Assembly: GCF_004010195.1 (NCBI RefSeq)
Contig: NC_057730.1
Location: 58,278,647-58,342,646, forward strand
Reading direction: 5' to 3'
Length of the DNA: 64,000 bases
Source of the DNA: Chiloscyllium plagiosum
Taxonomy: Eukaryota
The position numbers and the translations under genes are program-made. The notes beneath the pieces are model-generated. The model did no database searches, was not told the DNA's origin, and worked only from the letters and a program-made list of their open reading frames with translations. Positions 1,116-20,189 of this stretch are shown here, piece by piece. Each line of letters opens with the position of its first letter. Position 1 is the first letter of the stretch.

Positions 1116-2859
1116 TCTCCATTCCTCTGCAATCAAGGCCAACATTCTACTCATTGTCCTAATTACTTGCTGTACATGCTAACTTTGTGTTTCAACCACA
1201 AAGAAACCAAAATTTCCTTTGCTACTCACTTGTTGCATGAAATTTGAAACAAAAAACTCTGATTCTGAGGTTACTCTAACTTAAAGTAGTCAGCTGGAAA
1301 GAGGGAGTATTTGGCCATTCATATTTTATTCGAAATTCTTCTTGATCTGTGGAAGCAATAAGTTGCGTTGGCAAAATGCTAATCCAGCAGCACCAACCAC
1401 TGCAGATGAAAGGGGAGAGGGTAAAGAACATTCCTCTAGACTGCAGAAGTTGTGCAGCCTCTAACTCTCCTTAAATCATCCTGAAATGTGCTACTTGTCA
1501 ACAAGTGCACATTCTTTCATTTCTTTTGACTAAATTTCAGTGTTGCTAGAAGTTTGAGTTCCTCTCAAACACTTGGTGAAAAGAAAAACTTGGTTGATCC
1601 AGTTCAATATTTTCCAATTCTCCACATAATTCAGATAGATTTTCTCAACCCTATAATTTGAACGTCATTTTTATCATCTTTCAGTAGCAATCTTTTGACC
1701 ATTTTTATAAATTACATCCTCAGAATCCTGCTCTTTATTTTGCTTCTTTTCATGCATTGACATATGCATTAAAACGATTAAACAGTTGAAAAGCTTTCCA
1801 ATTGCAATTTGTTAAACAAGCTGATTTTGATATACACGAATGACATTTTTGTGGGCATCTTCTAGGCATCACTTTTTAAAAATATGGACTGCCCATTTAA
1901 AGCTGAGATGAGTAGACAACTGAAGGTTTTTACAACTCTCTTCCTCAAAGGCAGTAGAAGTAAAGTCTGAATATTTTTAAAATCGAGGGCGATAGATTCT
2001 TTGTATAAACAAGGGAGTGAAACCTTAATCTGTGTTGGTGGGAATGTAGAATAATCAGATCAGCTCAGATTGCACTGAATGGCAGATCGCACTGAATGGC
2101 AGTTCAGGCTCAAGAGCTGGCTCCAAATTCAAATGTTTGTGTGGTTAAATTAATATAAATGTTTAAATCTCAAAGTAAAAACATTCAACTGCTTGCTTTA
2201 GCTTTTCTTGAACTCCAGATTATTTATACTGATTTATGCTAATCAAATTCAAGGTGTTCTAACAAATTTGACGAACATTTGGGCAACCCATTACAGTTAG
2301 TAAACAGGCAAAATACAGTATATACTCAAATACTGCACATGCCTCGACATGAAATAAAAACAGTACAGTAGGAAATTTCAAGCACGTGTCAAGAGTTGAA
2401 ATTAGGCTGTAATGTTAAAACCTTGAACAACTTACCAGGACACACGATAAAACTCTACGTGATAATCAAACAAGCTTCCACCTTCAAGGAAGAAGAAAAC
2501 AGGAGTGAAAGAAATACTGCCAAATATTTGCTACTCTTCAAATTGTATTGTCTGTTGTGTTCCAAAATGAACTTGGTTACCAACCAGCTAAACACTGTGG
2601 CAGAGGTTAATACTCAATATTACATAGATGATGCAGAATCCAAATGAAATTTTAAAAACTCTTTCCAGCAGGAAATTTGGAGGAAAGACAAAGACTGCAG
2701 AATACAAAAGTTTATAGTAGATGGTTGTGTGTGTCGGGTACTAACGAAAGCCCCACACAATGAGAAAGCAACCATAGCCACTGTTTAAACCATTGATTTT
2801 ACAGATGACAAAGCAGCTGCAATCAGAAATCCCGGGGATGGATGGATGGATACTGCAGC

Positions 2860-3260
2860 ATTCACAGGAGCAGCTGGAGTTTCAATGCGGCACTCAGCCA
2901 GCACAAAGCGGCGCCGTCAGGGACCCAGGCCTGAGGGAGGCGGCACGAGCAGCTCAGGGGGAGGACTGGGAGGTGAGGGAGGGGGTGAGGGTGGGGGTGA
3001 GGGTGAGGGAGATCCCGAGGGGGTGGCGGTGGGGGTGAGGGAGATCCCGAGGGGGTGGCGGTGGTCGGGCTGGGGCTGTCCGCTGCCGGGCCCTGACCTG
3101 TCACTAACCCCGTTCCGCTCCCGCCATCCAAACCGCTCCGTCACCTGGCAACAGGAGTCCGCGCTCATTGGCTCGCGCCGTCTCGGAACGTCACGTCCGG
3201 TTCTGCTGCAGCAAAGGTGGGGGTTAAAGGAGGAGCAACACGGAGTGCGTATCCGGCAGT
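2860..3260. promoter_or_regulatory. CpG-island promoter, possibly bidirectional; gene unidentified
   Basis: Sharp GC/CpG rise; ATTGG (CCAAT box on -) ~3167, CGGAA ETS core ~3184, ACGTCACGT CRE-like ~3188; on - strand ATG at 3127 followed by candidate donors GTTAGT (3108) and GTCAGG (3097). Confidence 0.65.
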
Positions 3261-3700
3261 AATAATTACTCGGGGTCCATAATACTACCTGAAATAACCA
3301 TTCAGTCACTACTACTGCCTTGTAATAATTACTCAGGGTCACTCATACTGCCTGTAATACTCACTCAAGGTCACTTATACTCCTTGTAATAATCACTCAG
3401 GGGTCACTCATACTGCCTGTAATACTCACTCAAGGTCACTAATACTCCTTGTAATAATCACTCAGGGGTCACGCATACTGCCTTGTAATAATTACTCAGG
3501 GTCACTCATACTGCCTGTAATACTCACTCAGGGTCACTCATACTGCCTGTAATAATCACTCAGGGTCACTCATACTGCCTTGCAATAATCACTCAGGGTC
3601 ACTCATACTGCCTTGCAATAATCACTCAGGGTCAATCATACTGCCTGTAATACTCACTCAGGGTCACTAATACTGCCTTGTAATAATCACTCAGGGTCAC
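3260..3700. repeat. Minisatellite, ~31-33 bp unit (GTAATAATCACTCAGGGTCACTCATACTGCCT), roughly 13 copies
   Basis: Unit visible directly; degenerate at left end, more uniform at right. Confidence 0.95.
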
Positions 3701-4410
3701 TGTTAGAAACGAAAATCGCTTCTCAATAATCGCTCTAGACAAATTCAGGAAAACAAAGTTTTATTGGCAAGTCTGCAGAGTTGGGCACTCTTCTGAGAAN
3801 NNNNNNNNNNNNNNNNNNNNNNNNNNNNNNNNNNNNNNNNNNNNNNNNNNNNNNNNNNNNNNNNNNNNNNNNNNNNNNNNNNNNNNNNNNNNNNNNNNNN
3901 NNNNNNNNNNNNNNNNNNNNNNNNNNNNNNNNNNNNNNNNNNNNNNNNNNNNNNNNNNNNNNNNNNNNNNNNNNNNNNNNNNNNNNNNNNNNNNNNNNNN
4001 NNNNNNNNNNNNNNNNNNNNNNNNNNNNNNNNNNNNNNNNNNNNNNNNNNNNNNNNNNNNNNNNNNNNNNNNNNNNNNNNNNNNNNNNNNNNNNNNNNNN
4101 NNNNNNNNNNNNNNNNNNNNNNNNNNNNNNNNNNNNNNNNNNNNNNNNNNNNNNNNNNNNNNNNNNNNNNNNNNNNNNNNNNNNNNNNNNNNNNNNNNNN
4201 NNNNNNNNNNNNNNNNNNNNNNNNNNNNNNNNNNNNNNNNNNNNNNNNNNNNNNNNNNNNNNNNNNNNNNNNNNNNNNNNNNNNNNNNNNNNNNNNNNNT
4301 GCTGAATATGGACTGTTAACTTGGTTATACATGAAACAAGAAACTGTTTTAAGTTAAGAAAATTTCAGTCATTTAGGAAGATATTAAGGCGATATAATAA
4401 TTCCTCGACA
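3701..4410 (-). mobile_element. Probable LTR spanning the assembly gap
   Basis: On - strand begins TGTCGAGG (4410) and ends TTTCTAACA (3701), with AATAAA ~60 nt before the end; no TSD; middle is N. Confidence 0.45.
3800..4299. other. Assembly gap (500 N)
   Basis: Run of N of round size; smaller gaps at ~9492-9512 and ~46693-46780. Confidence 0.99.
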
Positions 4411-4599
4411 ACATTGCTGCATAGCTACTAGATTGTCATGTTACATAATTTCCAAATAAATAAGTGATAAAAGACAGTAGGCTTTCATCGGTGCCTGTAT
4501 CCACAAAAATAATGCAAAGATACAAGAATGTTGCTTTATTTGTATAATCTGCACTTTGTCTTTCTTGATCTTAAACGGGCTTTTTCATCGTTACTGCAG

Positions 4600-4679
4600 G
4601 AAAAATGGAAGAGCCCTAAAGAAAGAGGAGCTCTTTCGATTGCGACACAGAAATCTTTAGACAGAAAAAGGCAGATTAA
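4600..4679 (+). CDS. CCP110: CCP110 internal exon ([27 protein letters not shown])
   Basis: cag|G acceptor, AA|gtaagt donor; matches recalled human CP110 [22 protein letters not shown]. Confidence 0.9.
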
Positions 4680-4938
4680 GTAAGTGCCACAATTACTGTA
4701 ACAGTACTGTTTGTCATTATAGTTATAAAAGAAATAAGTATTTAGTATTCAAAAGCTGAACATCAGTTGTTTTTATTTTCATAGAAAAAGACCCTGTGAT
4801 AGGTTTATGAAGAGATGGTGATAAATTCACTTGCTCCTCTTTACTTGCAAGATCAAGGTTGGGAGATGAACGCAGCTAGATTGGGGAAATTATTGCCACC
4901 TTCCTGGAATTTGATGAGTATTCACTTTCATTTTCCAG

Positions 4939-5007
4939 GGCTGCTGAAATGGGAACAACCAGTAAAGAGAAGTCCCATGTGAAACAAAAGGCTTCCTCTG
5001 CAACCAG
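4939..5007 (+). CDS. CCP110: CCP110 internal exon (AAEMGTTSKEKSHVKQKASSATR)
   Basis: ttccag| acceptor, |gtaagt donor; phase-compatible with neighbours; human counterpart recalled as [21 protein letters not shown]. Confidence 0.9.
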
Positions 5008-5086
5008 GTAAGTCCAGATAAAGATCAACAATGTAAGGCTCTTTGCTAGACAGTACAAAATTAAATATCTTACTGCTTATTTATAG

Positions 5087-5146
5087 AATTCTTCAACCAA
5101 GCCAGGGGCAGAATGCTCCAGCCCAAAGACTACTTCATAGACAAGG
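5087..5146 (+). CDS. CCP110: CCP110 internal exon (ILQPSQGQNAPAQRLLHRQG)
   Basis: tag| acceptor, GG|gtaagt donor; human counterpart recalled as [20 protein letters not shown]. Confidence 0.92.
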
Positions 5147-5199
5147 GTAAGTGTCAGAATAGTTGTATTTCAATTGACTGGAAACCAGTGACTGGTTTC

Positions 5200-8100
5200 T
5201 TTATTTTTTGTTTAGTTTTTTAGTAATCTCGTTGGGAATTTAGAATAGTGGGAATGGAGGTTAGGGCAGTTGAATGTCCCTCCTGCAAAATGTGGGAGTT
5301 AAGAGTCACCGGTAGTGTCCCTGCTGACTGCATCTGTGTACCCAACTCCAGCTCCTTGAGAACCACGTCAGGGAACTGGATGAACTTCGCTTCATTCGGG
5401 AGGCAGAAGGATTTATTGAGAGGAGTTACAGAGAGATAGTCACATCTCATAAAAGAAGAAGGTAGATGGGTTACCGTCAGGGGACGGAAAGGGAACCGGT
5501 AGGCAGTGGCTGTTCCCCTCAACAATTAGTATACCGTCTTGGATACTATTGGGAGGAAGACTTACTAGGGATAAGCAATGGGACACAGGTTTCTGGCACA
5601 GAGTCTGTCTCTGCTGCTTAGGAGGGAAGGGGGAAGAGGAGCAGAGCATTAATCATTGTGGACTCCATAGTTAGGGGGACAGAGGGAGACTCACGTTTGG
5701 TGTGTTACCTCCCAAGTGACAGGTTCGTGATGTCTCTGATCGTGTTTTCAAGATCCTTGCAGGGGAGGGGGAGCAGCCCCAAATCATGGTCCACATAGGC
5801 ACCAACGACATAAGTAGGAAGAGGGATGGGAATTTACCGCGGAAATTCAGAGAGCTAGGATGGAAGTTTAGAGCTAGAACAAATAGTTGTTATCTCTGGT
5901 TTGTTGCCCATGCCACGTGCTAGCGAAGCGAGGAATAGAGAGAGAGAGAGAGACACAGAGAGAGAGGAGTTGAACGTGTGGCTACAAGAATGATGTAGGA
6001 GGGAAGGTTTTGGATTCCTGGATAATTGGGACTCTATCTGGTGTAGGTGGGACTTCTACAAACAGGATGTCTTCACTTGAACTAGAGGTGTACCAATATC
6101 CTGGGGGTAGGGGGGGGAAATTTGCTAATGCTGTTCGGGTGGGTTTAAACTAATTCAGCAGGGGGATGGGAACCGAAATTGAAGTTCAAGTACATGGAGG
6201 TTGAGAGTATTGAAGTCCGAACAAAGATTTCAAGATCGCAAGAAGGCACCAGCAGGCAAGAAGTTGGTTTGAAGTTTGTCTACTTCAGGAACATCCGGAA
6301 TAAGGTGGGTGAACATGCATCATGGGTTGGTACCTGGGATTCGATGTTATGGCCATTTCAGAGACATGGGTAGAGCAGGGACAGGAATGGTTATTGTAGG
6401 TTTCAGTAAGAACAGAGAAAATGGTAAAAGAGGGGGTGGTGGGGCACTGTTAGTCAAGGACAGCATTACAGTTGCAGAAAGGACATTTGAGGACTTATCT
6501 ACTGAGGTACAATGGGCTGAGATTAAAAACAGGAAAGGAGAGGTTACCCTGTTCGGAGTTGTCTATAGGCCTCCAAATAGTTCCAGAGATATAGAGGATA
6601 GGATAGCAAAGATGATCCTCAATAAGAGCGAGAGTGACAGGGTAGTTGTCATCGGGGTCTTTAACTTTCCAGATATTGACTGGGAATACTATAGTTCAGT
6701 ACTTTAGATGGGTCAGTTTTTATCCAATGTGTGCAGGAGGGTTTCCTGACACAGTATGTAGACAGGCCAACAAGGGGACTTGGTACTGGGTAATGAACCC
6801 GGCCAGATGTTATATTTGGAGATAGGTGAGCATTTTGGTGATCTTGACCACAATTCAATTATGTTTACTTGAGTGATGGAAAGAGATAAGTATATACCAC
6901 AGGGCAGGAGTTATAGCTGGGGGAAAGGCAATTATGATGCAATTAGGCAAGATTTTGGAAACATAGGATGGGGAAGGAAGCTGCAAGGGATGGGCACAAT
7001 AGAAATGTGGAGCTGATTCAAAGACCATCTCCTATGGGTCCTTGATATCTATGTACCAGTCAGGCAAGGAAGACGTTGACGAGCGCAGGAGCCATGGATC
7101 ATGGAAAACCCTAAGGCTTTCTATAGCTTTGTCAGGAATAAAAGAATGACTAGAGTAAGATTAGGGCCAATCAAGCATAGTAGTGGGAAGTTGTGAATAG
7201 AGTCAGAGGAGATAGGGAAGGGCTAAATGAATACTTTTCGTCCGTATTCACATGAGAAAAAGACATTGTGGCTGAGGGGAATATTAAGATACGGGCTACT
7301 AAACTAGATGGGATTGAGGTGCACAAAGAGGAAGTGTTAGCAATTCTGGAAAATGTAAAAATAAATAAGTCCCCTGGAACAGGTGGGATATATCCGAGGA
7401 TTCTCTGGGAAGCCAAGGAGGAGATTGCTGAGCCTTTGGCTTTGATCTTTATGTCGTCATTGTCTACAGGAATAGTGCCAGAAGACTGGAGTTTAGCAAA
7501 TGTTGTTCCCTTGTTCAAGAAGAGGAGTAGAGACAACCCTGGAAATTATAGACCACAGAGTCTTACTTCGGTTGTGGGTAAAGTGTCGGAAAGAGTTATG
7601 AGAGAGAGGATTTATAATCATCCAGAGATGAATAAGTTGATTAGGGATAGCCAACACGGTTTTGTGAAGGGTGGGTCGTGCCTCACTAACCATATTGCAT
7701 TCTTGGAGAAGGTGACCAAACAGGTGGATGAGGGAAAAGCAGTTCATTTGGTGTACACGGATTTCAGTAAGGTGTTTGTTAAGGCTTCCCATGGTAGGCT
7801 ATTGCGCAAACTACAGAGATATGGGCTTGAGGGTGATTTAGCGGTTTGGATCAGAAATTGGCTAGCTGAAAGAAGACAGACGGTGATGGTTCATGGGAAA
7901 TATTTATCCTGGAGTTCAGTTACTAGTGGGATACTGCAAGGATCTGTTTTGGGTCCACTGTTGCTTGTCATTTATAGAAATGACCTGGATGAGGGCATAG
8001 AAGAATGGGTTAGTAAAATTGTGGATGGCACTAAGGTCCATGGAGTTGTGGATAGTGACGATGGATATTGTAGGTTACAGAGAGACATAGATAAGCTGCA

Positions 8101-8409
8101 GAGCTGGGCTGAGAAGTGGCAAATGGAGTTTAATGTGGAAAATTGTGTATAGAAGCAAGGAGGTTCTTCTGCAGCTGTACAGAGCCCTGGTGAGACTGCA
8201 CCTAGAATATTGTGTGCAGTTTTGGTCTCCAAATTTGAGGAAAGACATTCTGGCTATTGAGGGAGTGCAGCATAGGTTCACAAGGTCAATTCCCGGAATG
8301 GCGGGACTATTTTAGGTTGAAAGATTGGAGCGACTGGGCTTGTATCCCCTTGAGTTTGGAAGACTGAGAGGGGATCTGATTGAGACGTATAAGATTATTA
8401 AAGGATTAA
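5200..8409 (+). mobile_element. Long decayed CR1 LINE: ORF1 (Zn-finger + SGNH esterase) and ORF2 (APE endonuclease + RT)
   Basis: CPSCKMWE; DSIVRG and VHIGTND esterase motifs; GVVYRPPNS and FNFPDIDW APE motifs; KSPG..GIYPRIL, QHGFVKG.SCLTN and QGSVLGPLL RT motifs; frameshifts and internal deletions. Confidence 0.93.
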
Positions 8410-8482
8410 CTATTTCATTTGAAGTTTATAATTCTTCATAAGACCCTCAAATCTGTTATCACCTGGCTAGCAACTATAACTT

Positions 8483-8537
8483 CAAAGTTTGGGAGAAGAT
8501 TTGTAGCTCGGGTGCTCGTTGTTGTGTAGAACCACAC
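8483..8537 (-). mobile_element. Tiny Penelope-like (family B) terminal fragment with 14-bp TSD
   Basis: CAAAGTTTGGGAGAAGATTTGTAGCTCGGGTGCTCG matches family B ends (9832, 37607, 53460); flanked by AGCAAC(T/C)ATAACTT at 8469-8482 and 8538-8551. Confidence 0.8.
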
Positions 8538-9831
8538 AGCAACCATAACTTTTTGTTTAATGTAGACACAGTTTGAAATCCTAGTTACAAGCCAAGTAGT
8601 GGTAGTTATGTTGGTGCAGGCTCAATGGGCCAAAGGGTCTTTTCTGTGCTGTATGAATCTATAGATAAAGCCAAGGATTCCAGTGTTCTGAACAAACAAA
8701 ATAAATTACTATAACCAAGTTAGAAAAATAATTCAATCTATTACATGTTCATAACTTTTATCCTAACATTCAGTAATGACACAAGGTAAATATGGGTAAC
8801 AGATTCAAACATCCTGTACAACACAGTAGTTAGCAAATGCAGCTAAGACAGATCCCACAGATTTCTCAGCAACCTCCTGATGTTAATGACACTATGGGTA
8901 ACTAGATCCAAATAACTTTTTCTATTTTGCAAGGTGTCTCAGTTCTTCACTTTTTAGCTTTGGAACTTCCTCATAAACTCTGTCAATGACTTCTCATGTT
9001 CAGGCACTGCAGTCTGTTCTTCTGAGACTGTATCCAACTGGATTCCCCAGCACAGGTTTAATCCCGGCTCTTCAGCAGATAGCCAGCTTCATTATAGTAT
9101 CCTGGGTGTGTCAGAACTTTTAATATTTCTCCCGCTGTGAGGCAAGTGCAACATGTGGACTTGGCTTATCTGCACTCTCTTAGCTGCACAGAACTATCAG
9201 TGTCTTCCAGAGAATTTGCCCTAACTGCCTGGAGTCTGCTAATGACAAAATTTCTGCTTTAGTGTTCTCCAAACTAAAAACTGCAAGTGACTTAAAACAA
9301 ACAAAAACAATACAGCGCAGGAACAGACCCTGCAGCCCACCAGACTGTGCCAACAGTGATGTTTTTCGAAACTAAAAACTCTTTGCCTCTCCACAGTTCA
9401 TATCCCTCTGTTCTCTGCCTATTCATACATTTGTAAAGATTCCTCTTAAATGATGCTATTGCATCTGTGTCCATCACTGCCTCTGGCAGCANNNNNNNNN
9501 NNNNNNNNNNNNAAATCTATGCTCTCCCTCCCCCCCCCCCCCCCCCCTTAGTAAATGACATTTCTCTTCTGGGGGAAATATACCCCAATTATCCATTCTA
9601 CCCTTCCCTCTCGTAATTTTGTAAATTTCTATCAGGTCACCATTCATCCTTCAACATTCAAGTGAAAACACACCATGTTTGTCCAAGCTGTCTTCATAGC
9701 TAATGCCCTGTCAACCAGACGACATCCTGATAAACTGTTTGTGTACTCTCTCCAAAGTCTCCACATCATCGTTGTAGTGTGGTGACTAGAACTGTACAAC
9801 AAGTCCAAATATGACCTAACTGAAGTTCTAT

Positions 9832-10367
9832 TCAACGTTTGGGTGAAGATTTGTAGCTCGGGTGCTCGTTGCTGTGGTTCTGTTCGCCGAGCTGGAAATT
9901 TTTGTTGCAAACATTTCGTCCCCTGTCTAGGTGACATCCCCAGTGCTTGGGAGCCTCCTGTGAAGCGCTTCTGTGGTGTTTCCTCCAGCATTTATAGTGG
10001 CCTGTCCTTGCCGCTTCCGGTTGTCAGTTTCAGCTGTCCGCTGTAGTGGCCGGTATATTGGGTCCAGGTCTATGTGTTTGTTGATGGAGTTTGTAGGGCA
10101 TTATAGGGCAAGCAAAACAAAGAACAGCCAGGGAATTCCTAGAAGCATGGCACTCATCCACAAACTCCATCAACAAACACATCGACCTGGACCCAATATA
10201 CCGGCCACTACAGCGGACTGCTGAAACTGACAACCGGAAGCGGCAGGGACAGGCCACTATAAATGCCGGAGAAAACACCACAGAAGCGCTTCACAGGAGG
10301 CTCCCAAACACTGAGGATGTCACCTAGACAGGGGACGAAACGTTTGCAACAAAAATTTCCAGCTCAG
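9832..10367. mobile_element. Penelope-like element family B, fold-back insertion with 11-bp TSD
   Basis: ~200-bp inverted arms; + strand encodes GIY-YIG C-terminal remnant (AKQRTAREFLEAWHSSTNSINKHIDLDPIY); TGAAGTTCTAT at 9821-9831 and 10368-10378. Confidence 0.9.
10308..10347 (+). ncRNA. Minimal hammerhead ribozyme motif (PLE family B)
   Basis: ACA-CTGAGGA-T-GTCACCT-AGAC-AGGGGAC-GAAA-CG-TT-TGC fits CUGANGA/stem II/GAAA/UH. Confidence 0.7.
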
Positions 10368-11624
10368 TGAAGTTCTATGTAACAGCAAAATGACTTGCCA
10401 ATTTTTGTACTCCATGCCCCGATTTAAGCATAATATATTGCCACCTTTTCCACCTCATCCACTTTGAGAGAATTGTGGGTCTGTATGCCTAGATCCCTCT
10501 GTCTGCTACTGAGGGTTCTGCCATGTATTGTGTACTTTCCTCCTGCATTAGATCTCACTAATTGCATCACCTCAAATTTGTCTGGATTAAACTCAATCTA
10601 CCTTTTTCTGCCCAAGTCTCCAGCCTATCCATAATTCTGCAGTATCCTCTGACAATCCTCCTCACTATCTGCAGCTTCCTTAGTCTTTTTGTTGTCTGCA
10701 AACTTACTAATCAGACCACCTACATTCTCCTCCAAATCATTTATATACATTACAAACAACAGGCGTCCCAACACTGATTCCTGCAGACCACCGGTCACAG
10801 ATCGCCAATCTGAAAAACTCCCTTTCACCGCTGCTCTGTGTCTTCTGTGACCAGGCCATTTTACCAGCTCACCATGATAAGATTCTCCAAGAAAATTTCT
10901 AGAGACTGTCACCAGAGAGCCATTTCAGCATTGTGAATCTTTATGATAATGTAGTTTGCTCTGAGGTAGTGTTTTCTAGTCTTTCAAAGTTCACCATTTT
11001 TCAGCTAACTTTGCTAAATCACAAAACAAATGTTTTTTTTTTCCTCGGTTCTGATGTTATAGAGTTATAGAGATGTCCAGCACAGCAACAGATGTATTAA
11101 ACAAACATGGGTAACTCCTTAAAGCAACTTGGCTCCAGTCTTTTAAATGCAATAGACTTTAAGGTGCTTCAATTACAGATTCATTTTCTTTCATTAACCT
11201 TGAAGTTTAAATCAAAAAAATTACTTATTAAACCAAGAAACAAGTTTTATTTGTATAGGGAGTGTTTGCAAAATTGCCACTTATTTAAGATAATGAGGTA
11301 GTTCTTGCAGAAATTTGAATTATAGTTTATTTTCAAAATTTATGTACAAGATGTTCTTATGTTTGGTTCTATTTTAAACCCTACAAGCATTTATCTTTTA
11401 TCTCCAACTTTTCCTTTGTTTGAAAAGAATTTGATAGCTGCTCAAGTGTAGAAATTGAAAATGTCACTTTGAACCACATCATAAGTCACACCACACAAGG
11501 TTATAGTCCAGTAGGATTTATTTAAAATCATAAGTTTTCAGAGTACTGCCCCTTTGTCAGGTAAAATGGTGGGAAGTGCAGAGGTACAGAATATACAGGT
11601 GAAGAGGTGATGGCAAGATAATTC

Positions 11625-11805
11625 CAGGTCTGGACCTCCTTCCCTGAAGGAGATTAATGAGCCAGAAGAGTTTTTCCAACAATTGGCAATGGTTTCATGG
11701 ACATTAGTAGATTCCTAATTCCAGAATTTTTAAAATTGAATCCAAACTCCACCATCTGCTGTGGCAGGATTTGAAGCTGGATCCCCAGAACCACTAGGCT
11801 ATTAC
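11625..11805 (-). mobile_element. tRNA-derived SINE fragment (SacSINE1/DeuSINE-like)
   Basis: Homologous to 18085-18610 and, in opposite orientation, 12836-13020; B-box-like GCTTCAAATCC on - strand. Confidence 0.6.
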
Positions 11806-12835
11806 CACCTGTAAAGAATCAAATTTTTACCCAGGGTTTTATTCCTTGATATGTCTAATCCTAATACACAGTCCAAAAATACACTGATCCTTCAACTGTG
11901 ACCATTTCCATCACTTTCTCCTTTTCCCATTGGTAGCTAAAGGTTTGTAATTTAAGCCCCAAGGTTTGAAGTGTCCTCTCTGAACCTCTGTCTATCCCTC
12001 CTCCTCTAAAACATGGATCTTTGATATCTATGCCTTTGGCCGATGTATAAAAGTGGAAACTTTTGTTACTTTTCTACATGTGTGTATAGTGGTCCAAGCT
12101 TCAGAAGAAACTGAAAGACTTCATTGTGTTAAGTCATTATAATAATTCAAAGTGCATCATTTAAGTCCACTCAAATAATGTGGCAATTTTATTACTATTA
12201 GAAATGCAACTAGGTCTGCTGCTGCCTTTATGATCACTCCTGAAATCCTCTCCCAGATCTAAAGATCATGAAAGAGTGGATTTTACAGCCATTTATTGGA
12301 AGACATTCGGCATCCTAGTTTCAAAATAAGTGAATAATCATTCTGCACAGAATAATGAAAATTACTTGAAATATTTTATCAGTTTGTTTAAAAGGGTAAG
12401 GATAATAATAATGGATATTGAATATTTTAAGATAAATTATATTTAACTGAAAGTATTGAATAAATGCCTCAATCACTACTTTGTATTTTCATCATAGTTG
12501 TCATAAATTATTTTAGTGGTATGTTCTAATTTTAGAGAACTGTAGCATGTCATAATTATTGAAAAATATCAAACCATTCCTTAAGAATAGGTGAGAAATG
12601 TTTTCTTTTGATATTGCCTAATAATCTATTGAGGTTTGGAACAATGCTGTACATATGAAACTAGCCAAATTGGAAATTACGAGGACAATATCCGAATGGC
12701 ATGTGGTTGAGATTTAATCCTGTGGTCAGACCTTTAATGTACTTTGCTTTCTCAGAAAATTGGTAATAGTTGCTTTTGTTGATGCAAAGCATTTCAAAAT
12801 TCTAAAAGTATATTTAGTTTTCAATAAATGTAGTC

Positions 12836-13020
12836 AATTGTTGGAAAAACCCATCTGGTTCACTGATATCCTTGAGGGAAGGTTACTGCCATCCTTAACT
12901 GAGCAGGACTATATGTGACTCCAGATGCACAGAAATATGATTGACTTTTAAGTGCCCTCTGGGATGGGCAATAAATGCTGGCCTACCCAGTGACACCCTC
13001 ATCCTATGAGCGAATTTTTT
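12836..13020 (+). mobile_element. SINE 3' half (SacSINE1/DeuSINE-like) with LINE-derived tail
   Basis: Tail GGGATGGGCAATAAATGCTGGCC..CAGTGACACCC resembles the 3' end of the LINE at 40888-41850. Confidence 0.65.
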
Positions 13021-13738
13021 AAAAAAACTTTAAATGCCACTGATTTTTTTTTCCATTTTTATGTGGTTGCAAATATTTTCCTCCAATGTTCGTGACTGGT
13101 AAAATTCTTCCTCTGTAATGTTTGCTTTGCTACTCTTGTATCTGAAGGCCGGTTTGACTTGCAGATTCTTTGTATTTTCTTTGAAGGTGATGCAGCTGTT
13201 TTGTTGTCACAAAATGAGTTGCAGTTGAGAACTTGAGACATTTGACCTTTGTGTCACTTCTAATTATTCTTTTGAACTTACCGTTCAAGTTCTACCAAAA
13301 ATGATGGGATAAGTTATGAAACTATCATGTTCTAATTACTCTGGCTCCTCCGCAAAGACAGCCTGATGTGTCTCAAAAACAGTCTTGTTACTTGGGCTTT
13401 CACAGTATATAGGAGTATTCACTGTATATATTTCACAGTATTTATGCCCTGACTCTGGCTCCTTTAACACAGTTATTGCATGGTCATTACATTTTGAAAA
13501 CTACAACTGCATATTAAAGTATTACTTGGAACTGCCACTATTTTGTGTTTGTCGTAACAATTTTCTCAGCACGATTGTTTCCTATTGCTCTTTATCTGTT
13601 TTTAATCCCAAAGAATTTTGCATAATGATAAGAGAACGATCATTTCAGTTATATTTAAAATCCATTAAATATCTGGTGTTTTGGTTGAGAAATTAAAATG
13701 CATTTGTAGTGTCCACTCATATTTTTTTAATTGATCAG

Positions 13739-13818
13739 AATCCAGACTTCCAGGAAGGGTGTTGAACAGTATAGACAAAGGTACCCAGAAAGCAGATTTC
13801 GTAAGAAAGCTGTTCCAG
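13739..13818 (+). CDS. CCP110: CCP110 penultimate 80-nt cassette exon (IQTSRKGVEQYRQRYPESRFRKKAVP)
   Basis: cag| acceptor, CAG|gtgtgt donor; resembles recalled human [28 protein letters not shown]; open in the required phase. Confidence 0.8.
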
Positions 13819-14376
13819 GTGTGTTGCTGAGTTTGTTCACATCCATCATCTGTTTTCTATTTCTTGTATATTTTTTATTTGTTCTATTCAGGTTGAGTTA
13901 GTTATTTTGTGTCTTGTTTTCTTACACCTTTCTGCAATGTTTACATAATTTGTCTTCCTTGCTACTTGTTTGGAATTTTAATGCCTTTTTTTCTCTCGTT
14001 CTATGTTTGCAAATCCCTCCACTCTCTGCTTAGAACCTTGTCTAGCCCCAGAATCCTCCAAGATATTGTTATCTAATTCTGGACTCTTGAGTACCCCTGA
14101 TTTTCATTCCTGTACCAATGGTGGCTCTGTCTTCATGTTTGGTCCTATCTTGGAATTCCATCCTCAGCCTCTGACTATCTTTCATCATTTCAGATTCCCC
14201 CAAAAATCTATCTCTTTGAGTCCTAATATCACCTTTATGTAGATTGATATCAAATTCTGCTTTAAAACAGAGCTCTAAAAGTGCCTTGGGGTGTTTGATT
14301 ACATTAAAGACGCTGTATAAATGTAAGTTGTTGTGATATACAACAGCCTCAGCTGAATGATGGAATGCCGTTAATT

Positions 14377-14520
14377 AGAGTCATAGAGATGTACAGCACG
14401 CAAACAGACCCTTCGATCCAACCCGTCCATGCCGACCAGTTATCTCAACCCAATCTAGTCCCACCTGCCAACACCCAGCCCATATCCCTCCACACCCTTC
14501 CTATTCATATGCCCATCCAA
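14377..14520 (-). mobile_element. CR1 extreme 3' end (5'-truncated)
   Basis: Reverse complement of the 3' UTR/tail at ~970-1113. Confidence 0.9.
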
Positions 14521-15159
14521 ATTCTGCTAACATGAGTAGCCTGAGAAGTATTGAAACTGGGGGATATACCTGGTTTCTATCATATCTGATCTGTGTATTC
14601 ATTATCAATTTTTTTTTCTCACTCTTTCCAGTTGCCTTTGTACTTCCTTGCATCTTTTTGTTTTCTTTTCCTATTTCTTTCAATCTCACTGCTTAGCACA
14701 CTCTCTTCAAGGCCAGTAAATTACCTTATTTTTTATTTTATTTTGGTTAGTTAGCATAGGTTATAAGAAATTGAAAATACTAATGTAGGCATCTGACTGA
14801 TCAAACATATTCCGTTATTACTACACCTCAGGATTTTGTGTTAATCTTATTAATATTTCCATTGTGGCATTTTGTTAAACAGGATCTGTTGATTTTCTGA
14901 GTGTTCTCTTTGCCTTTTAAAAATATACTATTGTGCATTAACACCACCTAGAATTCCAGTATTTTCAAAATCCCAGTAGGAGCTACTTTAATTCTAAGGT
15001 GCTCTATGTACAGTGCAATTCCTGATTGCGGGAGATAAGCAAGCTATTCAAATTGTAAAAACTTAACAATTATAAACCTATGGACCCCAATTTGACAAAA
15101 CGGGTAAGAGTTTCCTTGGATTTCATTGAAATGTAGAAACTCCATGCTAATAACTTTTT

Positions 15160-15659
15160 TAAAAGGGTTCAGAAAAGATTTAGGAGGATGTTGCCAGGGT
15201 TGGAGGATTTGAGTTATAGGGAGAGGTTAAATCGGCTGGGGCTGTTTTCCCTGGAGCATGGAGGCTGAGGGGTGAGCTTATAAGAAGTTTACAAACTCAT
15301 GCGAGGCATGGCTTGGATAAGTAGACAAGGTCTTTTCCCTGGGGTGGGGGAGTCCAGAACTAGAGGGCATAGGTTTAGGGTGAGAGGGGAAAGATATAAA
15401 AAAGAACCTAAGGGGCAACATTTTCATGCAAAGGGTGGTGCATGTATGGAATGAGCTGTCATGGGAATTGGGGGAGGCTAGTATGATTGCAACATTTAAA
15501 AAGCATCTGGATAGGTCTATGAATAGGAAGGGTTTGGAGGGATGTGGGCCAGGTGCTGGCAGGTGGGACTAGATTGGGTTGGGATATCTGTTTGGCATGG
15601 ACGAGTTGGACCGAAGGGTCTGTTTCTGTGCTGTACATCTCTATGACTCTGTGACTCTA
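15160..15659 (+). mobile_element. CR1 3' fragment
   Basis: Colinear with ~630-1113; CTCTATGACTCTGTGACTCTA tail. Confidence 0.92.
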
Positions 15660-15924
15660 AATAAAAGTATTGGTTTTATTTATTTTCTGGCATTTTGTTT
15701 CAACTGTTATGAAACAATAGAGTTATCCATTCTGACAATGGAAAAGTGAGACAAATTGTATCGTTTTCTGTTAGTATTATATGAAATACCTGTGGTGGGC
15801 CACTCAGCCGCTTTTGGTTTTGAGATCACTTGCCTCTGCACTATTACAACTATACTACCATTTTTAAGGAAAGCGAGGGTATGGTCTATTCAATTGTACA
15901 TGTAATCAAACTAGTCAAAAAAAC

Positions 15925-16894
15925 CCTTCTGGTCTCCCTCCTGTTGGAAGGACATTGTGAAACTTGAAAGGGTTCAGAAAAGATTTAAGACCATAAGACA
16001 TAGGAGTGGAAGTAAGGCCATTCGGCCCATCGAGTCCACTCCGCCATTCAATCATGGCTGATGGGCATTTCAACTCCACTTACCCGCATTCTCCCCATGG
16101 CCCTTAATTCCTTGTGACATCAAGAATTTATCAATCTCTGCCTTGAAGACATTTAGCGTCCCGGCCTCCACTGCACTCTGCGGCAATGAATTCCACAGGC
16201 CCACCACTCTCTGGCTGAAAAAATGTCTCCGCATTTCTGTTCTGAATTTATCCCCTCTAATTCTAAGGCTGTGTCCACGGGTCCTAGTCTCCTCGCCTAA
16301 TGGAAACAATTTCCTAGTGTCCACCCTTTCCGAGCCATGTATTATCTTGTAAGTTTCTATTAGATCTCCCCTTAATCTTCTAAACTCCAATGAATACAAT
16401 CTCAGGATCCTCAGCCATTCCTCGTATGTTAACAAGGATGATGCCAGGGTTGGAGGGTTTAAGCTATAGGGAGAGGTTGAATAGCATTGAGCTGTTTTCC
16501 CTGGAGCTTCAGAGGCTGAGGGGTGACCTTATACAGGTTTATAAAATCATGAGGGGTATAGATAGGGCAAATAGACAATGTCTTCTCCCTGTGGTGGGGC
16601 AGTCTGGAACTAGAGGGAATAGGGTGAGAAGGGAAAAATTTGAAAGGGACCTAAGGGGCAACTTTTTCACACAAAGGGTGGCATGTGTATGGAATGAGCT
16701 GCCAGAGGAAGTGGTGGAGGTTGGTACAATTACAACATTTAAAAGGCATCTGGATGGGTACGTGAATAGAAAGGTTTTAGGGGGATTTGGGTCAAATGCT
16801 GGCAAATGGAACTTAGATTTGGTTAGGATATCTGGTTGGCATGGATGAATTGGACTGAAAGATCCATTTCTGTGCTGTACATCTCTATAACTCT
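15925..16894 (+). mobile_element. CR1 3' fragment, split by another CR1
   Basis: Host sequence GAAAAGATTTAA|...|TTAACAAGGATG resumes after the insert; ends with CR1 tail. Confidence 0.88.
15988..16428 (-). mobile_element. Young CR1 3' end of a second subfamily, nested antisense
   Basis: Intact ORF YEEWLRILRLYSLEFRRLRGDLIETYKII..FFSQRVVGLWNSLP; (TCTTATG)n-type tail. Confidence 0.9.
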
Positions 16895-18084
16895 AAATAA
16901 ATTGTTAACTTCTGTGCTATCTTGCCAAATATAATATAGCTTTCATTTGAATACTGGCTTAAGTCACCCTACGTCAGCTTTGACCATTCAGTGTTTTTAA
17001 ATCTCACAGTTGGCACACAGTGAATATATTATAATCACGTAGTGATCTTGAAGTGAACTGCACAAAAAGAAAGTCAGAACACCTCAGCCAGTGGAGTGCT
17101 GCAGGCCTGCATATTATTGTTATTTAGCTGCTGCAGGCCTGCATATTATTGTTATTTAGCTGCTGCACATATTTGAGTATATAATGCTTGCAACATTAAT
17201 TTATTTTTTTCGCTATCAACTTACTGTGGATAAAGGGTTATTCTTATTTTTAATATGGAAAATTAGTCAAGCTGGTACAATCTGACCATAAGTGAGGGTC
17301 TACAATTAGTTCCAGTTCCAGACAGGATATCGTAAGCTGTTAAGCTCCCAGGTGAGGAGGGATGAACAGCTCCCCTTCTTCATTCACGCATCCCCTCAGT
17401 TGGTTGCAGCAAAATTAATTTAGAAAGGACCCCTCTCCTTGTAGATATCTATCTCCTCGACCCAAATAATAAAAGCTAATTTAATCAGGATTTCTTGAAT
17501 TAACAAAATATGTTTATTAATTACTATAAGTGAGAAGAAATAGTAGAAAGCACAGAGATCAGCAATAAGATTTCAGTCTAATAAAATAAGTAATAAAACA
17601 GAGAAATGGATCAGTCTTTGAACTATTCTTGAAGAGCAAACAGTTGAACATAATGATTGTTGCAATTGAAGTTACCAATATCTACAATATTAGTAGTTGA
17701 ACAGTATTTGTTTTGTGGTTTTGTGGCCAAGTGAATTTTATTTGTCCTCATTCCTTTTTTAAAAAATTGGTTTGCAGTACTGAATGAGAGACCGTAATCA
17801 CCTGCATTACAGGGGTAACTAGGGGATAGTTCTTCAACCTTCACAGGACACTGATGACTGAACATAGGTTGGCACACCTGTGTTCAGTCACTTTGTCCTT
17901 CAAGTCCATTTCAGTAGAGTTGAAACTGGCTTTTTACCTGTCCTTGTATATTTTTCAAAGGGAAAAAGATAATGTGTCTGCAATTTGGGATGTAATCTGC
18001 AAAATTTGTTTTTCTACTGAGTAGGAGCTTGTCCGCCCCTCTTTGATTTTGTTGTCACAAGAGATCACAGTCCAGTCTGTTTTT

Positions 18085-18610
18085 TGTTTTATTTATTCTC
18101 AGAACATGGGCATTGCTGGCTAGCTCAGCATTTATTTCCCATCCCTAACTCCTCAGAGGGTGGTTATGAGTCATTCACCATTGCTGTGAGTCTGGATTTA
18201 GTGTAGGCCTAGTAAGGAAAGCAGTTTCCTTACCTAAACATTGAGTGAACCTATGCATTTTTAAGACAATCAGTAATAGTTTCATGATTGTCATTATTAT
18301 TCCAGATTCTCATTGAATTCAAATTCCACAATCTGCCATCATGGGATTCAAATCTGGGTCCCCAGAACATTGGGCGAAAGTGAGGACTGCAGATGCTGGA
18401 GATCAGAGTCAAGAGTGTGATGCTGGAAAAACACAGCAGGTCAGAATTCCTGATGAAGGAATTTTGCCCAAAATGTCGATTCTCCTGTTCCTTGGGTGCT
18501 GCCTGCTGTGCTGTGCTTTTCCGGCACCATACAACACTCCCCAGAACATTACACTAGTTCTCGGAATAAATAGTACAGTGATAATACCCTTATACCATTG
18601 TCTCACCCTT
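18085..18610 (-). mobile_element. Near full-length SacSINE1-like SINE interrupted by a PLE
   Basis: Tail at left, tRNA-like head at right (A-box-like TGGTATAAGGG; GATTTGAATCC); similar to 11625-11805. Confidence 0.65.
18372..18537. mobile_element. Penelope-like family A short fold-back insertion, 13-bp TSD
   Basis: GAAAGTGAGGACTGCAGATGCTGGAGATCAG end followed by inverted copy with degenerate hammerhead; TCCCCAGAACATT at 18359-18371 and 18538-18550. Confidence 0.88.
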
Positions 18611-19316
18611 TGACACTTTTGAGATGTTAGTTCCCATTGGCCTCACACAGAATGTTTGCTAGACATACACTGAATTTATACCTGCAGTCATTTTTGTCTT
18701 TGTAGCCATCCCTTTTTAAAAAAGAAATTTGAATTAAGGTCTAAAAATGTCCATAGAACTTCAGGGTTGTGTTCTGTGGTCATAACATTGTAAAATCACA
18801 ATGGAACTACACCGTTCGCTGCCTAAAATGCCTCTGAATTTCATATGCAGGCCAAAATTAAGGAATCATGTGCCAATTAGAGTGATGATCTATCCTTGCT
18901 GTGAAATTAAAGAATAGAAATACTATTTTGCAAGATCAAATTTACAACAGTATTCTGTCGTGGACTGGTAATCAACATTTTTTCTAAAAAATTGCAAAAT
19001 GTGTAAAAGTTGGGAATCAGTTTAGTTTTCAGGAAATGTTTCTAATATTTTTTTAAAAATCATTAATACAGAAAAAAATGCAAATTATTCTAGCCCCTAG
19101 AGCTTTCCTTTGTTTTGTTTTTTTCATGTATGATAGCTTTGCTGAACATAGTACAGAATGTAATTAACACTTTGAGTCCTGTCCCTTAAAAGTATTGTGA
19201 AAATAGTTAGTTTGCTTATCTCTAGCTCCTACTGGATATTTTTTCTTTCTCTCAATTTGATCAAAATAGTTTCAGAAGTTAATTTAATTTTTTAACATTT
19301 TTGTCATTTTTAAAAG

Positions 19317-19392
19317 GAGCATGCCCAGGAAGAGTGCTGAAAACAAAATCAAGCGTTACGACACTCTGAGGAAGCAGCATTCAATCGGATGA
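19317..19392 (+). CDS. CCP110: CCP110 terminal exon, dual frame: GACPGRVLKTKSSVTTL* (stop 19369) or GSMPRKSAENKIKRYDTLRKQHSIG* (stop 19392)
   Basis: Pyrimidine tract + aag| acceptor; both frames resemble recalled human CP110 ends GVYAGKIQRKRPNVATI* and GSICRKNPKKAAKCCDNLRRQHSLG*. Confidence 0.9.
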
Positions 19393-20080
19393 ACAATGCT
19401 ACATAGCTGCTTCACCTTTATGAATTGAACAGCCTTTTCAATTAAAATCACTGCTTGTGTCTTGTTCAATTATGATTAACAACTCTAAAACTTACAAAGT
19501 GGAAAAATACATTGAGAAACTCATCAAAGTAAGATTGCTAACAGCTGAGTAATCTAGTTTTATTTTCTTCCTGCACTGATTTATAAAGTCTTTATGTACT
19601 TGAGAAGGCACTGTTATTAAAAAAAAAAATCAAGTAACAATTCATATCCAACATATATTTCATATTCGGTACTGTTGGCTGTGTTGCAAAATGATTCTCA
19701 ATTCTCGACTCAGTGTGTAAAACTGCTTTTACAGAGGCACTATGTATGTTTTCCCTCATGGAACGTATTAGTATGTTTAAATCTTACCAGTAATATGTGC
19801 AAATAAAATGCTTGTACTAACTACATCTTAAATTGTCAAAGCATGCTGCATCTTTTCAGTTTTTTTGATATTTTAGTTTCTTAAACATTATACTTTTCTG
19901 CCTTAACCATTAAAAGGCCTTCAGTTCAACCCTTTTTACAGTGCAAATGCTAACTTCTTGGTTATATAAATCATTTTGCATTTGTTACATTTTGTGCCAA
20001 TATTTATTTTTATAATGTTCCAGTTATGTATTTATGTTGTACATCTTGCAAAATAAACCATTCAAACATTATTTGAATTA
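19393..20080 (+). promoter_or_regulatory. CCP110: CCP110 3' UTR with polyadenylation signals
   Basis: AT-rich, no recognisable repeats; AATAAA at 19802 and 20052, ATTAAA at 19616. Confidence 0.65.
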
Positions 20081-20189
20081 TTGAAAATGTCTGATCGTCT
20101 GTATTCAAATGGTAACTAAATATTTTTGATAAATATTCAATAATGTCTCTCAACTGATTTGATCCAATTCTGTTTGGGTATTGATGTAA

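What the first reader, a model, noticed from the sequence alone, without database searches (positions are those of the whole stretch)
13739..19392. Dual-frame CCP110 terminal exon toggled by an 80-nt cassette exon, apparently conserved to human
Seen: including 13739-13818 (80 nt, not a multiple of 3) makes the last exon read GACPGRVLKTKSSVTTL*; skipping it reads GSMPRKSAENKIKRYDTLRKQHSIG*. From memory, the human CP110 isoforms end in GVYAGKIQRKRPNVATI* and GSICRKNPKKAAKCCDNLRRQHSLG*, the same lengths counted from the junction glycine. Both stops are in the last exon, so neither form should be an NMD target. Inference: an overlapping dual-coding exon kept across jawed vertebrates. LRKQHS fits a basophilic kinase site (RxxS), and -VTTL* resembles a class I PDZ-binding end, so splicing could swap C-terminal motifs.
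Basis: partly seen in the sequence, partly recalled or inferred. Interest (0 to 1): 0.7.

Follow-up and report, generated by a model that had tools for sequence, protein, structure and literature searches.

The report
Ancient splice switch swaps CP110 tail
An 80-base exon in the shark gene for the centriole-capping protein CP110 shifts the reading frame of the last exon, an arrangement that mammals share, and skipping it gives an ancient tail with two matching serine motifs that likely act as a phosphorylation-controlled docking site which including the exon removes.

Summary
The coordinates, splice sites and both translations are right. Both isoforms are already annotated in many sharks, rays and tetrapods. 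A mouse Ccp110 cassette, most likely this one, is a published NOVA target skipped in motor neurons. Frameshifting penultimate exons are a known, common class.

Three claims need correcting. The switch is not seen in all jawed vertebrates: 0 of 35 ray-finned fish records carry the exon, and the chimaera inclusion frame stops 6 residues early. The PDZ end is not conserved (26 of 205 records). The shark motif has Lys, not Arg, at -3.

New here, as far as my searches reach: the skip form has two copies of hydrophobic-x-R/K-Q-x-S-hydrophobic, 21 residues apart. One is created by the skip junction, the other ends two residues before the C-terminus. Inclusion removes both. The motif occurs once elsewhere in 308,609 CP110 residues. 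This likely is a basophilic-kinase, possibly 14-3-3, docking pair (untested). Common lab constructs (991 aa) are likely the skip form.

No splice junction was seen directly in this species' reads. The scan index held no earlier CCP110 finding.

The parts
4600..4679 (+). CCP110 upstream coding exon A (80 nt)
   Evidence: AG/GT ends; tblastn to P0027 residues 883-909, 100%
4939..5007 (+). CCP110 upstream coding exon B (69 nt)
5087..5146 (+). Exon C (60 nt). Its last 14 nt (5133-5146) encode L-H-R-Q and two bases of the junction Gly, the first half of the junction motif
13713..13720 (+). Two YCAY words just upstream of the cassette acceptor (possible NOVA sites, untested)
13739..13818 (+). 80-nt cassette exon X (3n+2). 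Donor CAG|GTGTGT departs from the GTAAGT of exons A, B and C
   Evidence: P0001 residues 127-152
13837..13849 (+). Three YCAY words 19-31 nt after the cassette donor (possible NOVA site, untested)
   Evidence: 296 of 14139 intronic 30-nt windows hold three or more
19317..19369 (+). Stretch read in two frames (53 nt including the inclusion-frame stop)
19318..19323 (+). Ser-Met codons that complete the junction motif, skip frame only
19366..19392 (+). C-terminal motif L-R-K-Q-H-S-I-G and stop, skip frame only; Ser codon 19381-19383
19393..20071 (+). 3' UTR of the terminal exon, AATAAA at 20052-20057
   Evidence: gap-free contigs 19316-20068 and 19316-20071

Best explanation
The 80-nt penultimate exon shifts the frame of the last CCP110 exon; skipping it gives the 25-residue tail found in every jawed-vertebrate group sampled, whose two matching serine motifs likely form a phosphorylation-controlled docking site, and including it removes both motifs. 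Shown from sequence: the frame shift, the two stops in the last exon, and the two hydrophobic-x-R/K-Q-x-S-hydrophobic motifs 21 residues apart that exist only in the skip form. One motif is assembled across the skip junction; the other ends S-x-x-COOH. Published for mouse: a Ccp110 cassette is skipped in motor neurons, and NOVA favours the isoform with a predicted palmitoylation motif. That this is the same exon is inferred. Inferred and untested: CAMK-group or other basophilic kinases phosphorylate the two serines in a disordered tail, and a 14-3-3 dimer is the likeliest reader. This would tune CP110 capping, removal or location in neurons. Lobe-finned lineages added a di-cysteine to the same tail. 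The inclusion tail is a real, selected protein end in amniotes, but it is dispensable in other lineages.
For: Both forms are on record in 11 cartilaginous fish and 7 tetrapod species, all 18 pairs compatible with one DNA. In 19 hand-picked lineage representatives the C-terminal motif is present in 19 and the junction motif in 18. Across all 144 skip records the counts are 132 and 101. Spacing is 21 in 98 of the 100 records with both motifs. There is 1 hit outside the last 60 residues in 308,609 residues of 341 records, and 1 of 205 inclusion records has a motif. The pattern was written from the C-terminal copy; the junction copy turned up only on running it. Lungfish keeps the -5, -3, -2, 0 and +1 positions and changes -4 and -1. 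Inclusion puts Thr-Pro at the junction in 156 of 198 records scored, and Pro at +1 is rare in 14-3-3 sites (PMC2860806). 14-3-3 dimers often bind tandem basophilic sites in disordered tails, at least 15 residues apart, one group within 40, and (pS/pT)X1-2-COOH is a canonical motif (PMC9523730). Residues 920-982 of P0004 have pLDDT below 50. Mouse Ccp110 cassette inclusion is 0.58 and 0.55 in whole spinal cord against 0.11 and 0.14 in motor neurons (PMC6092797 supplement).
Against: No phosphorylation or binding was tested here. No CP110-14-3-3 or CP110-CaMKII link showed in the listings or the passages. The motifs lack the +2 Pro of mode I and II 14-3-3 sites (present in under half of known sites). 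The motif is short, degenerate and fits many kinases. Records are redundant and share ancestry, so the counts are not independent. 43 of 144 skip records lack the junction motif. No junction read was seen directly in this species. Ray-finned fish appear to make the skip tail in all cells, so it is not neuron-specific everywhere. The stronger shark YCAY cluster lies downstream of the exon, a position I recall as usually enhancing inclusion, opposite to the mouse direction. That the mouse cassette (chr7:125875967-125878781) is this exon is inferred from the di-cysteine, not checked by coordinates.
Confidence: 0.5

Rival explanations
1. The skip tail is a CaMKII docking or substrate site like the GluN2B one, linking neuronal calcium signals to CP110, itself a calmodulin-binding protein.
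For: Tetrapod skip tails contain LRRQHS. That word occurs in 12 papers, mostly on GluN2B with CaMKII or DAPK1 (listing only; that it is the GluN2B S1303 site is recalled). Both motifs meet the -5 hydrophobic, -3 R/K, -2 Gln, 0 Ser and +1 hydrophobic positions described by Ozden et al.. CP110 carries Pfam CaM_bind.
Against: The -8 basic residue of the full CaMKII consensus is missing: Cys in tetrapods and Tyr in sharks for the C-terminal copy. This reading does not explain two copies at fixed spacing or the fixed distance to the C-terminus.
Confidence: 0.15
2. The main job of the skip tail is palmitoylation of its di-cysteine, a filopodia-inducing motif that targets CP110 to membranes in neurons.
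For: Yuan et al. 2018 list Ccp110 among NOVA targets whose NOVA-promoted isoform has a predicted FIM. CC is nearly fixed in tetrapods and lungfish.
Against: CC is present in only 58 of 144 skip records. The shark tail here has no cysteine, yet the switch exists in sharks. The FIM was an in silico prediction for Ccp110. It can be a later addition but not the ancestral reason.
Confidence: 0.12
3. Both tails are basic disordered ends. The switch tunes microtubule-end binding, HOIP binding or protein half-life by length and charge, and the serine motifs are incidental.
For: CP110 581-991 carries plus-end blocking (PMC11756378), and 832-991 binds HOIP and is needed for removal (PMC8614155). The exon X peptide is itself conserved (48% elasmobranch vs amniote, against 31% for residues 100-600). 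Frameshifted tails change stability in the general class (PMC7392665 abstract).
Against: Charge alone does not predict the position-specific conservation of L, R/K, Q, S and the terminal G (18-19 of 19 lineages), nor 91% identity of the skip tail between sauropsids and mammals.
Confidence: 0.17
4. One reading: inclusion supplies a class I PDZ-binding end, so splicing swaps a PDZ ligand for a kinase site.
For: The shark inclusion end fits S/T-x-hydrophobic-COOH.
Against: Only 26 of 205 inclusion records fit. Rays end in Arg, whales and a gecko in Thr, whale shark in Phe, chimaera stops early, and most mammals have Ala at -2.
Confidence: 0.03
5. Exon X is splicing noise or a modelling artefact, and the inclusion frame is an unselected by-product of the skip frame.
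For: Inclusion-frame identity between shark and tetrapods is not clearly above what free synonymous choice in the skip frame gives (P 0.04, 0.10, 0.13, 0.50). In tetrapods the skip protein itself guarantees no early stop. The exon is missing or truncated in several lineages. No reads from X19 or X16 lay in the bin that holds it.
Against: The inclusion tail has 17 residues in 202 of 205 records, where the null gives 0.07-0.22 per lineage. In 93 placental records 9 of 17 skip-frame wobble positions are invariant and 6 more vary in 3 or fewer records (no neutral baseline, and RNA-level constraint is not excluded). Newt vs bird identity is 12 of 16 against a null of 6.8 (P 0.008). Mouse cord includes the cassette at about 0.57.
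Confidence: 0.03

Closest known systems
Mouse Ccp110 NOVA-regulated cassette exon (Yuan et al. 2018, PMC6092797; Cp110 also named among the Nova-list genes in Jelen et al. 2007, PMC2014790)
   Same: A cassette whose skipping is favoured in motor neurons; the NOVA-promoted isoform has a predicted di-cysteine motif, which matches the tetrapod skip tail (inferred to be the same exon).
   Different: In the passages read these papers do not describe the frame shift, the shark orthologue or the serine motif pair. The shark tail has no cysteine. The Jelen tables on exon conservation could not be read.
Frameshifting penultimate exons, 'splicing-accessible coding 3'UTRs' (Preussner et al. 2020, PMC7392665)
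   Same: Skipping a 3n+2 penultimate exon moves the last exon to another frame without NMD; over 10% of mouse genes.
   Different: The skip frame passes the other stop by fewer than 10 residues, below their cut-off, and CCP110 was not found by name in their 7 supplements. The skip frame is the widespread one and is not proline-rich. Conservation reaches cartilaginous fish.
Non-triplet splicing classes (PMC13247117, 2026): alternative C-terminal length and dual-coding isoforms
   Same: NMD-resistant non-triplet cassette with a stretch read in two frames and frozen wobble positions.
   Different: The 53-nt overlap is below their 60-nt dual-coding threshold, so it would fall under alternative C-terminal length. 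CCP110 was not found in text or 9 supplements.
Tandem 14-3-3 sites with a C-terminal mode III site (AANAT, DAPK2; PMC2860806, PMC9523730)
   Same: Two basophilic serine motifs in a predicted disordered tail, 21 apart, the second ending S-x-x-COOH.
   Different: Phosphorylation and binding are not shown for CP110; there is no +2 proline; here splicing makes or removes both sites.
CaMKII interactor motif (GluN2B, Tiam1; Ozden et al., 10.1101/2020.10.25.354241)
   Same: -5 hydrophobic, -3 basic, -2 Gln, Ser, +1 hydrophobic.
   Different: No basic residue at -8; two copies.

Membership tests
CCP110/CP110 orthologue | Sequence identity to annotated CP110 proteins and synteny | tested here: met
   VPS35L downstream; Pfam CaM_bind on full-length relative P0004
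Frameshifting penultimate cassette exon (NMD-escaping) | Penultimate exon length not a multiple of 3 | tested here: met
   80 nt
Frameshifting penultimate cassette exon (NMD-escaping) | Both stops in the terminal exon | tested here: met
   Stops at 19369 and 19392; gap-free contigs to 20068 and 20071
Frameshifting penultimate cassette exon (NMD-escaping) | Both splice forms seen in RNA of this species | tested here: inconclusive
   joints swamped by repeats; contig ends at 19316 and 19345 fit the skip junction; inclusion junction not seen; both forms are database models in 11 relatives
Splicing-accessible coding 3'UTR (Preussner definition) | At least 20 new residues with at least 10 encoded past the annotated stop | tested here: not met
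   24 new residues, but only 23 nt from the inclusion stop to the skip stop
Dual-coding isoform (PMC13247117 definition) | At least 60 recoded nucleotides | tested here: not met
   53 nt including the stop
Dual-coding region, general sense | Both frames under constraint | tested here: inconclusive
   Supported within tetrapods and by the stop position; not above null between shark and tetrapods; no neutral nucleotide baseline
NOVA-regulated exon | YCAY cluster at a map position with NOVA-dependent, brain-specific change | tested here: inconclusive
   YCAY words at 13713-13720 and 13837-13849; regulation published for mouse only; no shark tissue data
Tandem / mode III 14-3-3 ligand | Two basophilic Ser sites at least 15 residues apart in a disordered region; (pS/pT)X1-2-COOH | tested here: met
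   Sequence pattern only
Tandem / mode III 14-3-3 ligand | Phosphorylation and phospho-dependent 14-3-3 binding | not testable with these tools
   Needs phosphoproteomics and binding assays
Full CaMKII interactor consensus | R/K at -8, hydrophobic at -5, R/K at -3, S/T, hydrophobic at +1 | tested here: not met
   4 of 5 positions; -8 not basic
Filopodia-inducing motif (FIM) | Two adjacent cysteines near basic residues | tested here: not met
   Absent in this shark; 58 of 144 skip records have CC
Class I PDZ-binding C-terminus | S/T-x-V/I/L-COOH conserved among orthologues | tested here: not met
   26 of 205

The most novel reading that the evidence does not exclude
The ancestral CP110 tail is a two-site phospho-switch read by a 14-3-3 dimer. 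An exon as old as jawed vertebrates deletes both sites at once, by interrupting one at the junction and frameshifting the other, so cycling cells and neurons run CP110 with and without this control. Much CP110 cell biology would then have been done with the neuron-enriched isoform.
Probability: 0.3. Interest if true: 0.68.

Novelty: new member of a known kind. Interest (0 to 1): 0.45.

Why it matters
CP110 caps centrioles, and its removal allows cilia to form. Its C-terminal region carries microtubule-end blocking and HOIP binding, mapped on constructs ending at residue 991. That length is 21 less than primate and marsupial inclusion forms of 1012, the same gap as between the two isoforms, so these constructs are likely the skip form. 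If the two tails differ in phospho-dependent partners, isoform choice is an unrecognised variable in CP110 experiments and a concrete way for neurons to re-tune a centriole cap. Two serines and one exon make this cheap to test. As a type of splicing event it is ordinary.

Tried and rejected
No whole genome is held for this window, so upstream exons and other species' DNA could not be read. All cross-species evidence is from proteins.

Pfam on four single-exon peptides gave 0 families. The PDB sequence search with the skip tail gave 2 weak, unrelated hits.

The run search listed no holder on record as RNA; this is no evidence either way. Laying 4 runs on 4560-20100 at 90% likeness let intronic repeats fill the tables: 15 of 723 joints were shown, none at the exons. 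Depth in the bin holding exon X was 0, 0.47, 0 and 6 and could not be told from intronic background.

The AlphaFold model is low-confidence overall (mean pLDDT 45.3) and was used only as a disorder hint.

Rejected: conserved PDZ end; pan-gnathostome conservation of the exon; palmitoylation as the ancestral function; poison-exon NMD, since both stops are terminal.

Papers searched without a CCP110 hit in supplements: PMC7392665, PMC13247117, PMC6429586, and the two PDF supplements of PMC2014790. PMC3744162 had no passage on isoforms. The PMC10698143 passages link 14-3-3 to MIF, not CP110. Scan-index look-ups gave nothing on CCP110.
Full report
1. Observation. The window holds the 3' end of CCP110: exons 4600-4679, 4939-5007, 5087-5146, 13739-13818 and 19317 onward, all with AG/GT ends. 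The inclusion form is the C-terminus of RefSeq model XP_043566942.1 from Chiloscyllium plagiosum (P0001). The skip tail equals that of the C. punctatum model P0027. The cassette donor is CAG|GTGTGT, against GTAAGT for the three upstream exons.

2. RNA evidence in this species is indirect. Four runs were laid on 4560-20100. Intronic repeats filled the tables, and none of the 15 joints shown (of 723) is at an exon. Two contigs cover 19316-20071 (X15) and 19316-20068 (X16) with no gaps or differences, ending just after the AATAAA at 20052, so no intron follows either stop. Both begin at 19316, and intron-containing contigs in X16 and X5 end at 19345. Exon C ends GG, whereas exon X and the intron both end AG. 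With 31-letter words (my reading of how the contigs are built), a break at 19316 needs an incoming sequence that differs at 19315, which is the skip junction. The X15 contig has 123 further letters on that side. The inclusion junctions were not seen. X15 and X16 are not on record as RNA, and contigs drop rare forms.

3. Conservation. Three protein searches, one profile search and three cluster look-ups gave 521 stored proteins. By pattern, 144 end in the skip tail, 205 in the inclusion tail, and 172 are other (invertebrate homologues, truncated or odd models, unrelated cluster members). Records are redundant and not independent. For 18 species picked because both forms are named (11 cartilaginous fish, 7 tetrapods), the two tails fit one DNA read in two frames in 18 of 18. 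No human record came up.

4. The two frames are not equal. The skip tail is seen in sharks, rays, skates, chimaera, bichir, gar, teleosts, lungfish, all three amphibian orders and amniotes. Exon X is on record in sharks, rays, chimaera, coelacanth, newt and amniotes. It is in 0 of 35 ray-finned records and in none of the 10 frog, 4 caecilian and 2 lungfish records seen. These absences are weak, because one search used a skip query and listed 120 of 235 hits. One skate model ends inside exon X (P0016), and the chimaera inclusion frame stops after 11 residues. Shark-to-tetrapod identity of the inclusion tail is not clearly above a null of free synonymous choice in the skip frame (P 0.04, 0.10, 0.13, 0.50).

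Yet the inclusion form is not noise. Its tail is 17 residues in 202 of 205 records (null 0.07-0.22 per lineage). In 93 placental records 9 of 17 skip-frame wobble positions are invariant (no neutral baseline; 2 of 95 records dropped for lacking the 17-residue tail). The exon X peptide is 48% identical between elasmobranchs and amniotes, against 31% for residues 100-600. The null assumes saturated synonymous sites and so overstates significance for closer pairs.

5. What the switch changes. I wrote a pattern, hydrophobic-x-R/K-Q-x-S/T-hydrophobic, from the C-terminal motif. Running it showed a second copy that spans the skip junction. In 19 lineage representatives the C-terminal copy is present in 19 and the junction copy in 18, with no copy elsewhere in those proteins. 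Over all skip records the counts are 132 and 101 of 144. Misses include isoforms that also skip exon C, a salmonid 4-residue insert, and His or Arg at -2. Spacing is 21 in 98 of 100. One hit lies outside the last 60 residues in 308,609 residues, and 1 of 205 inclusion records has a copy. Inclusion replaces the junction serine with Thr-Pro in 156 of 198 records scored, or with Ile, Val or Ala in elasmobranchs, and moves the second motif out of frame. The tail is predicted disordered. The inclusion end fits class I PDZ in only 26 of 205 records. The di-cysteine is in 58 of 144 skip records and absent from this shark.

6. Mechanism. The frame shift and the motif gain and loss are shown. The rest is inference. 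The motifs fit basophilic CAMK-group kinases: they meet 4 of the 5 positions of the CaMKII consensus plus the -2 Gln, and lack the -8 basic residue (Ozden et al., passages). Two such sites 21 apart in a disordered tail, the second ending S-x-x-COOH, match the layout of tandem and mode III 14-3-3 ligands (PMC2860806 passages; PMC9523730 passages). That layout explains the pairing, the fixed spacing and the fixed distance to the C-terminus better than CaMKII docking, palmitoylation or charge alone, so I commit to it at modest odds.

In mouse a Ccp110 cassette is included at 0.58 and 0.55 in whole cord and at 0.11 and 0.14 in motor neurons (one supplement row). NOVA promotes the isoform with a predicted FIM (passages). 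I infer this is the same exon. The shark exon has two YCAY words upstream and three downstream. The latter cluster is matched by 2.1% of intronic windows, and its position, as I recall the NOVA map, would favour inclusion, so NOVA control in shark is open. Ccp110 is also listed among Qki-regulated targets, exon unstated (PMC6429586 passages).

7. Comparison and novelty. The isoforms are in public databases and neural regulation is published for mouse. The class is common: over 10% of mouse genes (PMC7392665 abstract and section 5), hundreds of human events (PMC13247117 passages). This case falls under both papers' size cut-offs and was not found by name in their supplements. Ten searches of the held library showed no paper on the frame shift, its presence in sharks or the motif pair; most hits were seen as listings only. 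The .doc tables of PMC2014790, including one on exon length conservation of 88 Nova exons across vertebrates, could not be read and may already report part of the conservation. Subscription papers are not covered. Two functional studies use CP110 ending at residue 991 (passages). The opossum-order pair P0232 and P0104 is 1012 and 991 residues, so these constructs are likely the skip form.

8. Verdict. The feature is real and partly known: a new member of a known kind. The paired serine motif that splicing makes or removes is a sharper, testable lead. Interest 0.45.

Noticed in passing
window 2805-2969 and 3800-4299: RefSeq model P0001 (169 aa) takes its first exon from a GC-rich stretch upstream of a 500-N gap, while the rest of CCP110 sits in separate models (P0032, P0028). 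The gene looks split by the assembly, and the 169-aa protein is probably an artefact.
   Followed up: partly
window 2780-3260: GC-rich, promoter-like segment followed by an imperfect tandem repeat (about 3260-3700). Four ORFs nearby had no Pfam match. It could be the start of a neighbouring gene.
   Followed up: partly
window 18307-18441: A dispersed repeat copy that Hemiscyllium models (P0022, P0023, P0029, P0030) use in place of exon X, also leading into the inclusion frame; possible repeat exonisation or model artefact.
   Followed up: no
window 27651-60488: VPS35L exons on the + strand downstream of CCP110.
   Followed up: partly
proteins P0243 and P0385-P0398 (salmonids): An in-frame 4-residue insert at the exon C to last exon junction breaks the junction motif; possibly a microexon or shifted acceptor.
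   Followed up: no
proteins P0033, P0192, P0221, P0225: Isoforms that also skip the 60-nt exon C exist in shark, porpoise and newt; they keep only the C-terminal motif.
   Followed up: no
proteins P0008, P0031, P0056, P0057, P0060-P0063, P0133: Further odd C-terminal models in sharks, rays and a bird (intron read-through or other last exons), suggesting more 3' splicing variety or modelling noise.
   Followed up: no
window 13476-13481: One TGCATG (RBFOX-type) word about 260 nt upstream of the cassette exon; may be chance.
   Followed up: no
cluster of P0085: The 710-member cluster of a deer CCP110 lists mostly VPS35L proteins, perhaps through a fused model of the two neighbouring genes.
   Followed up: no
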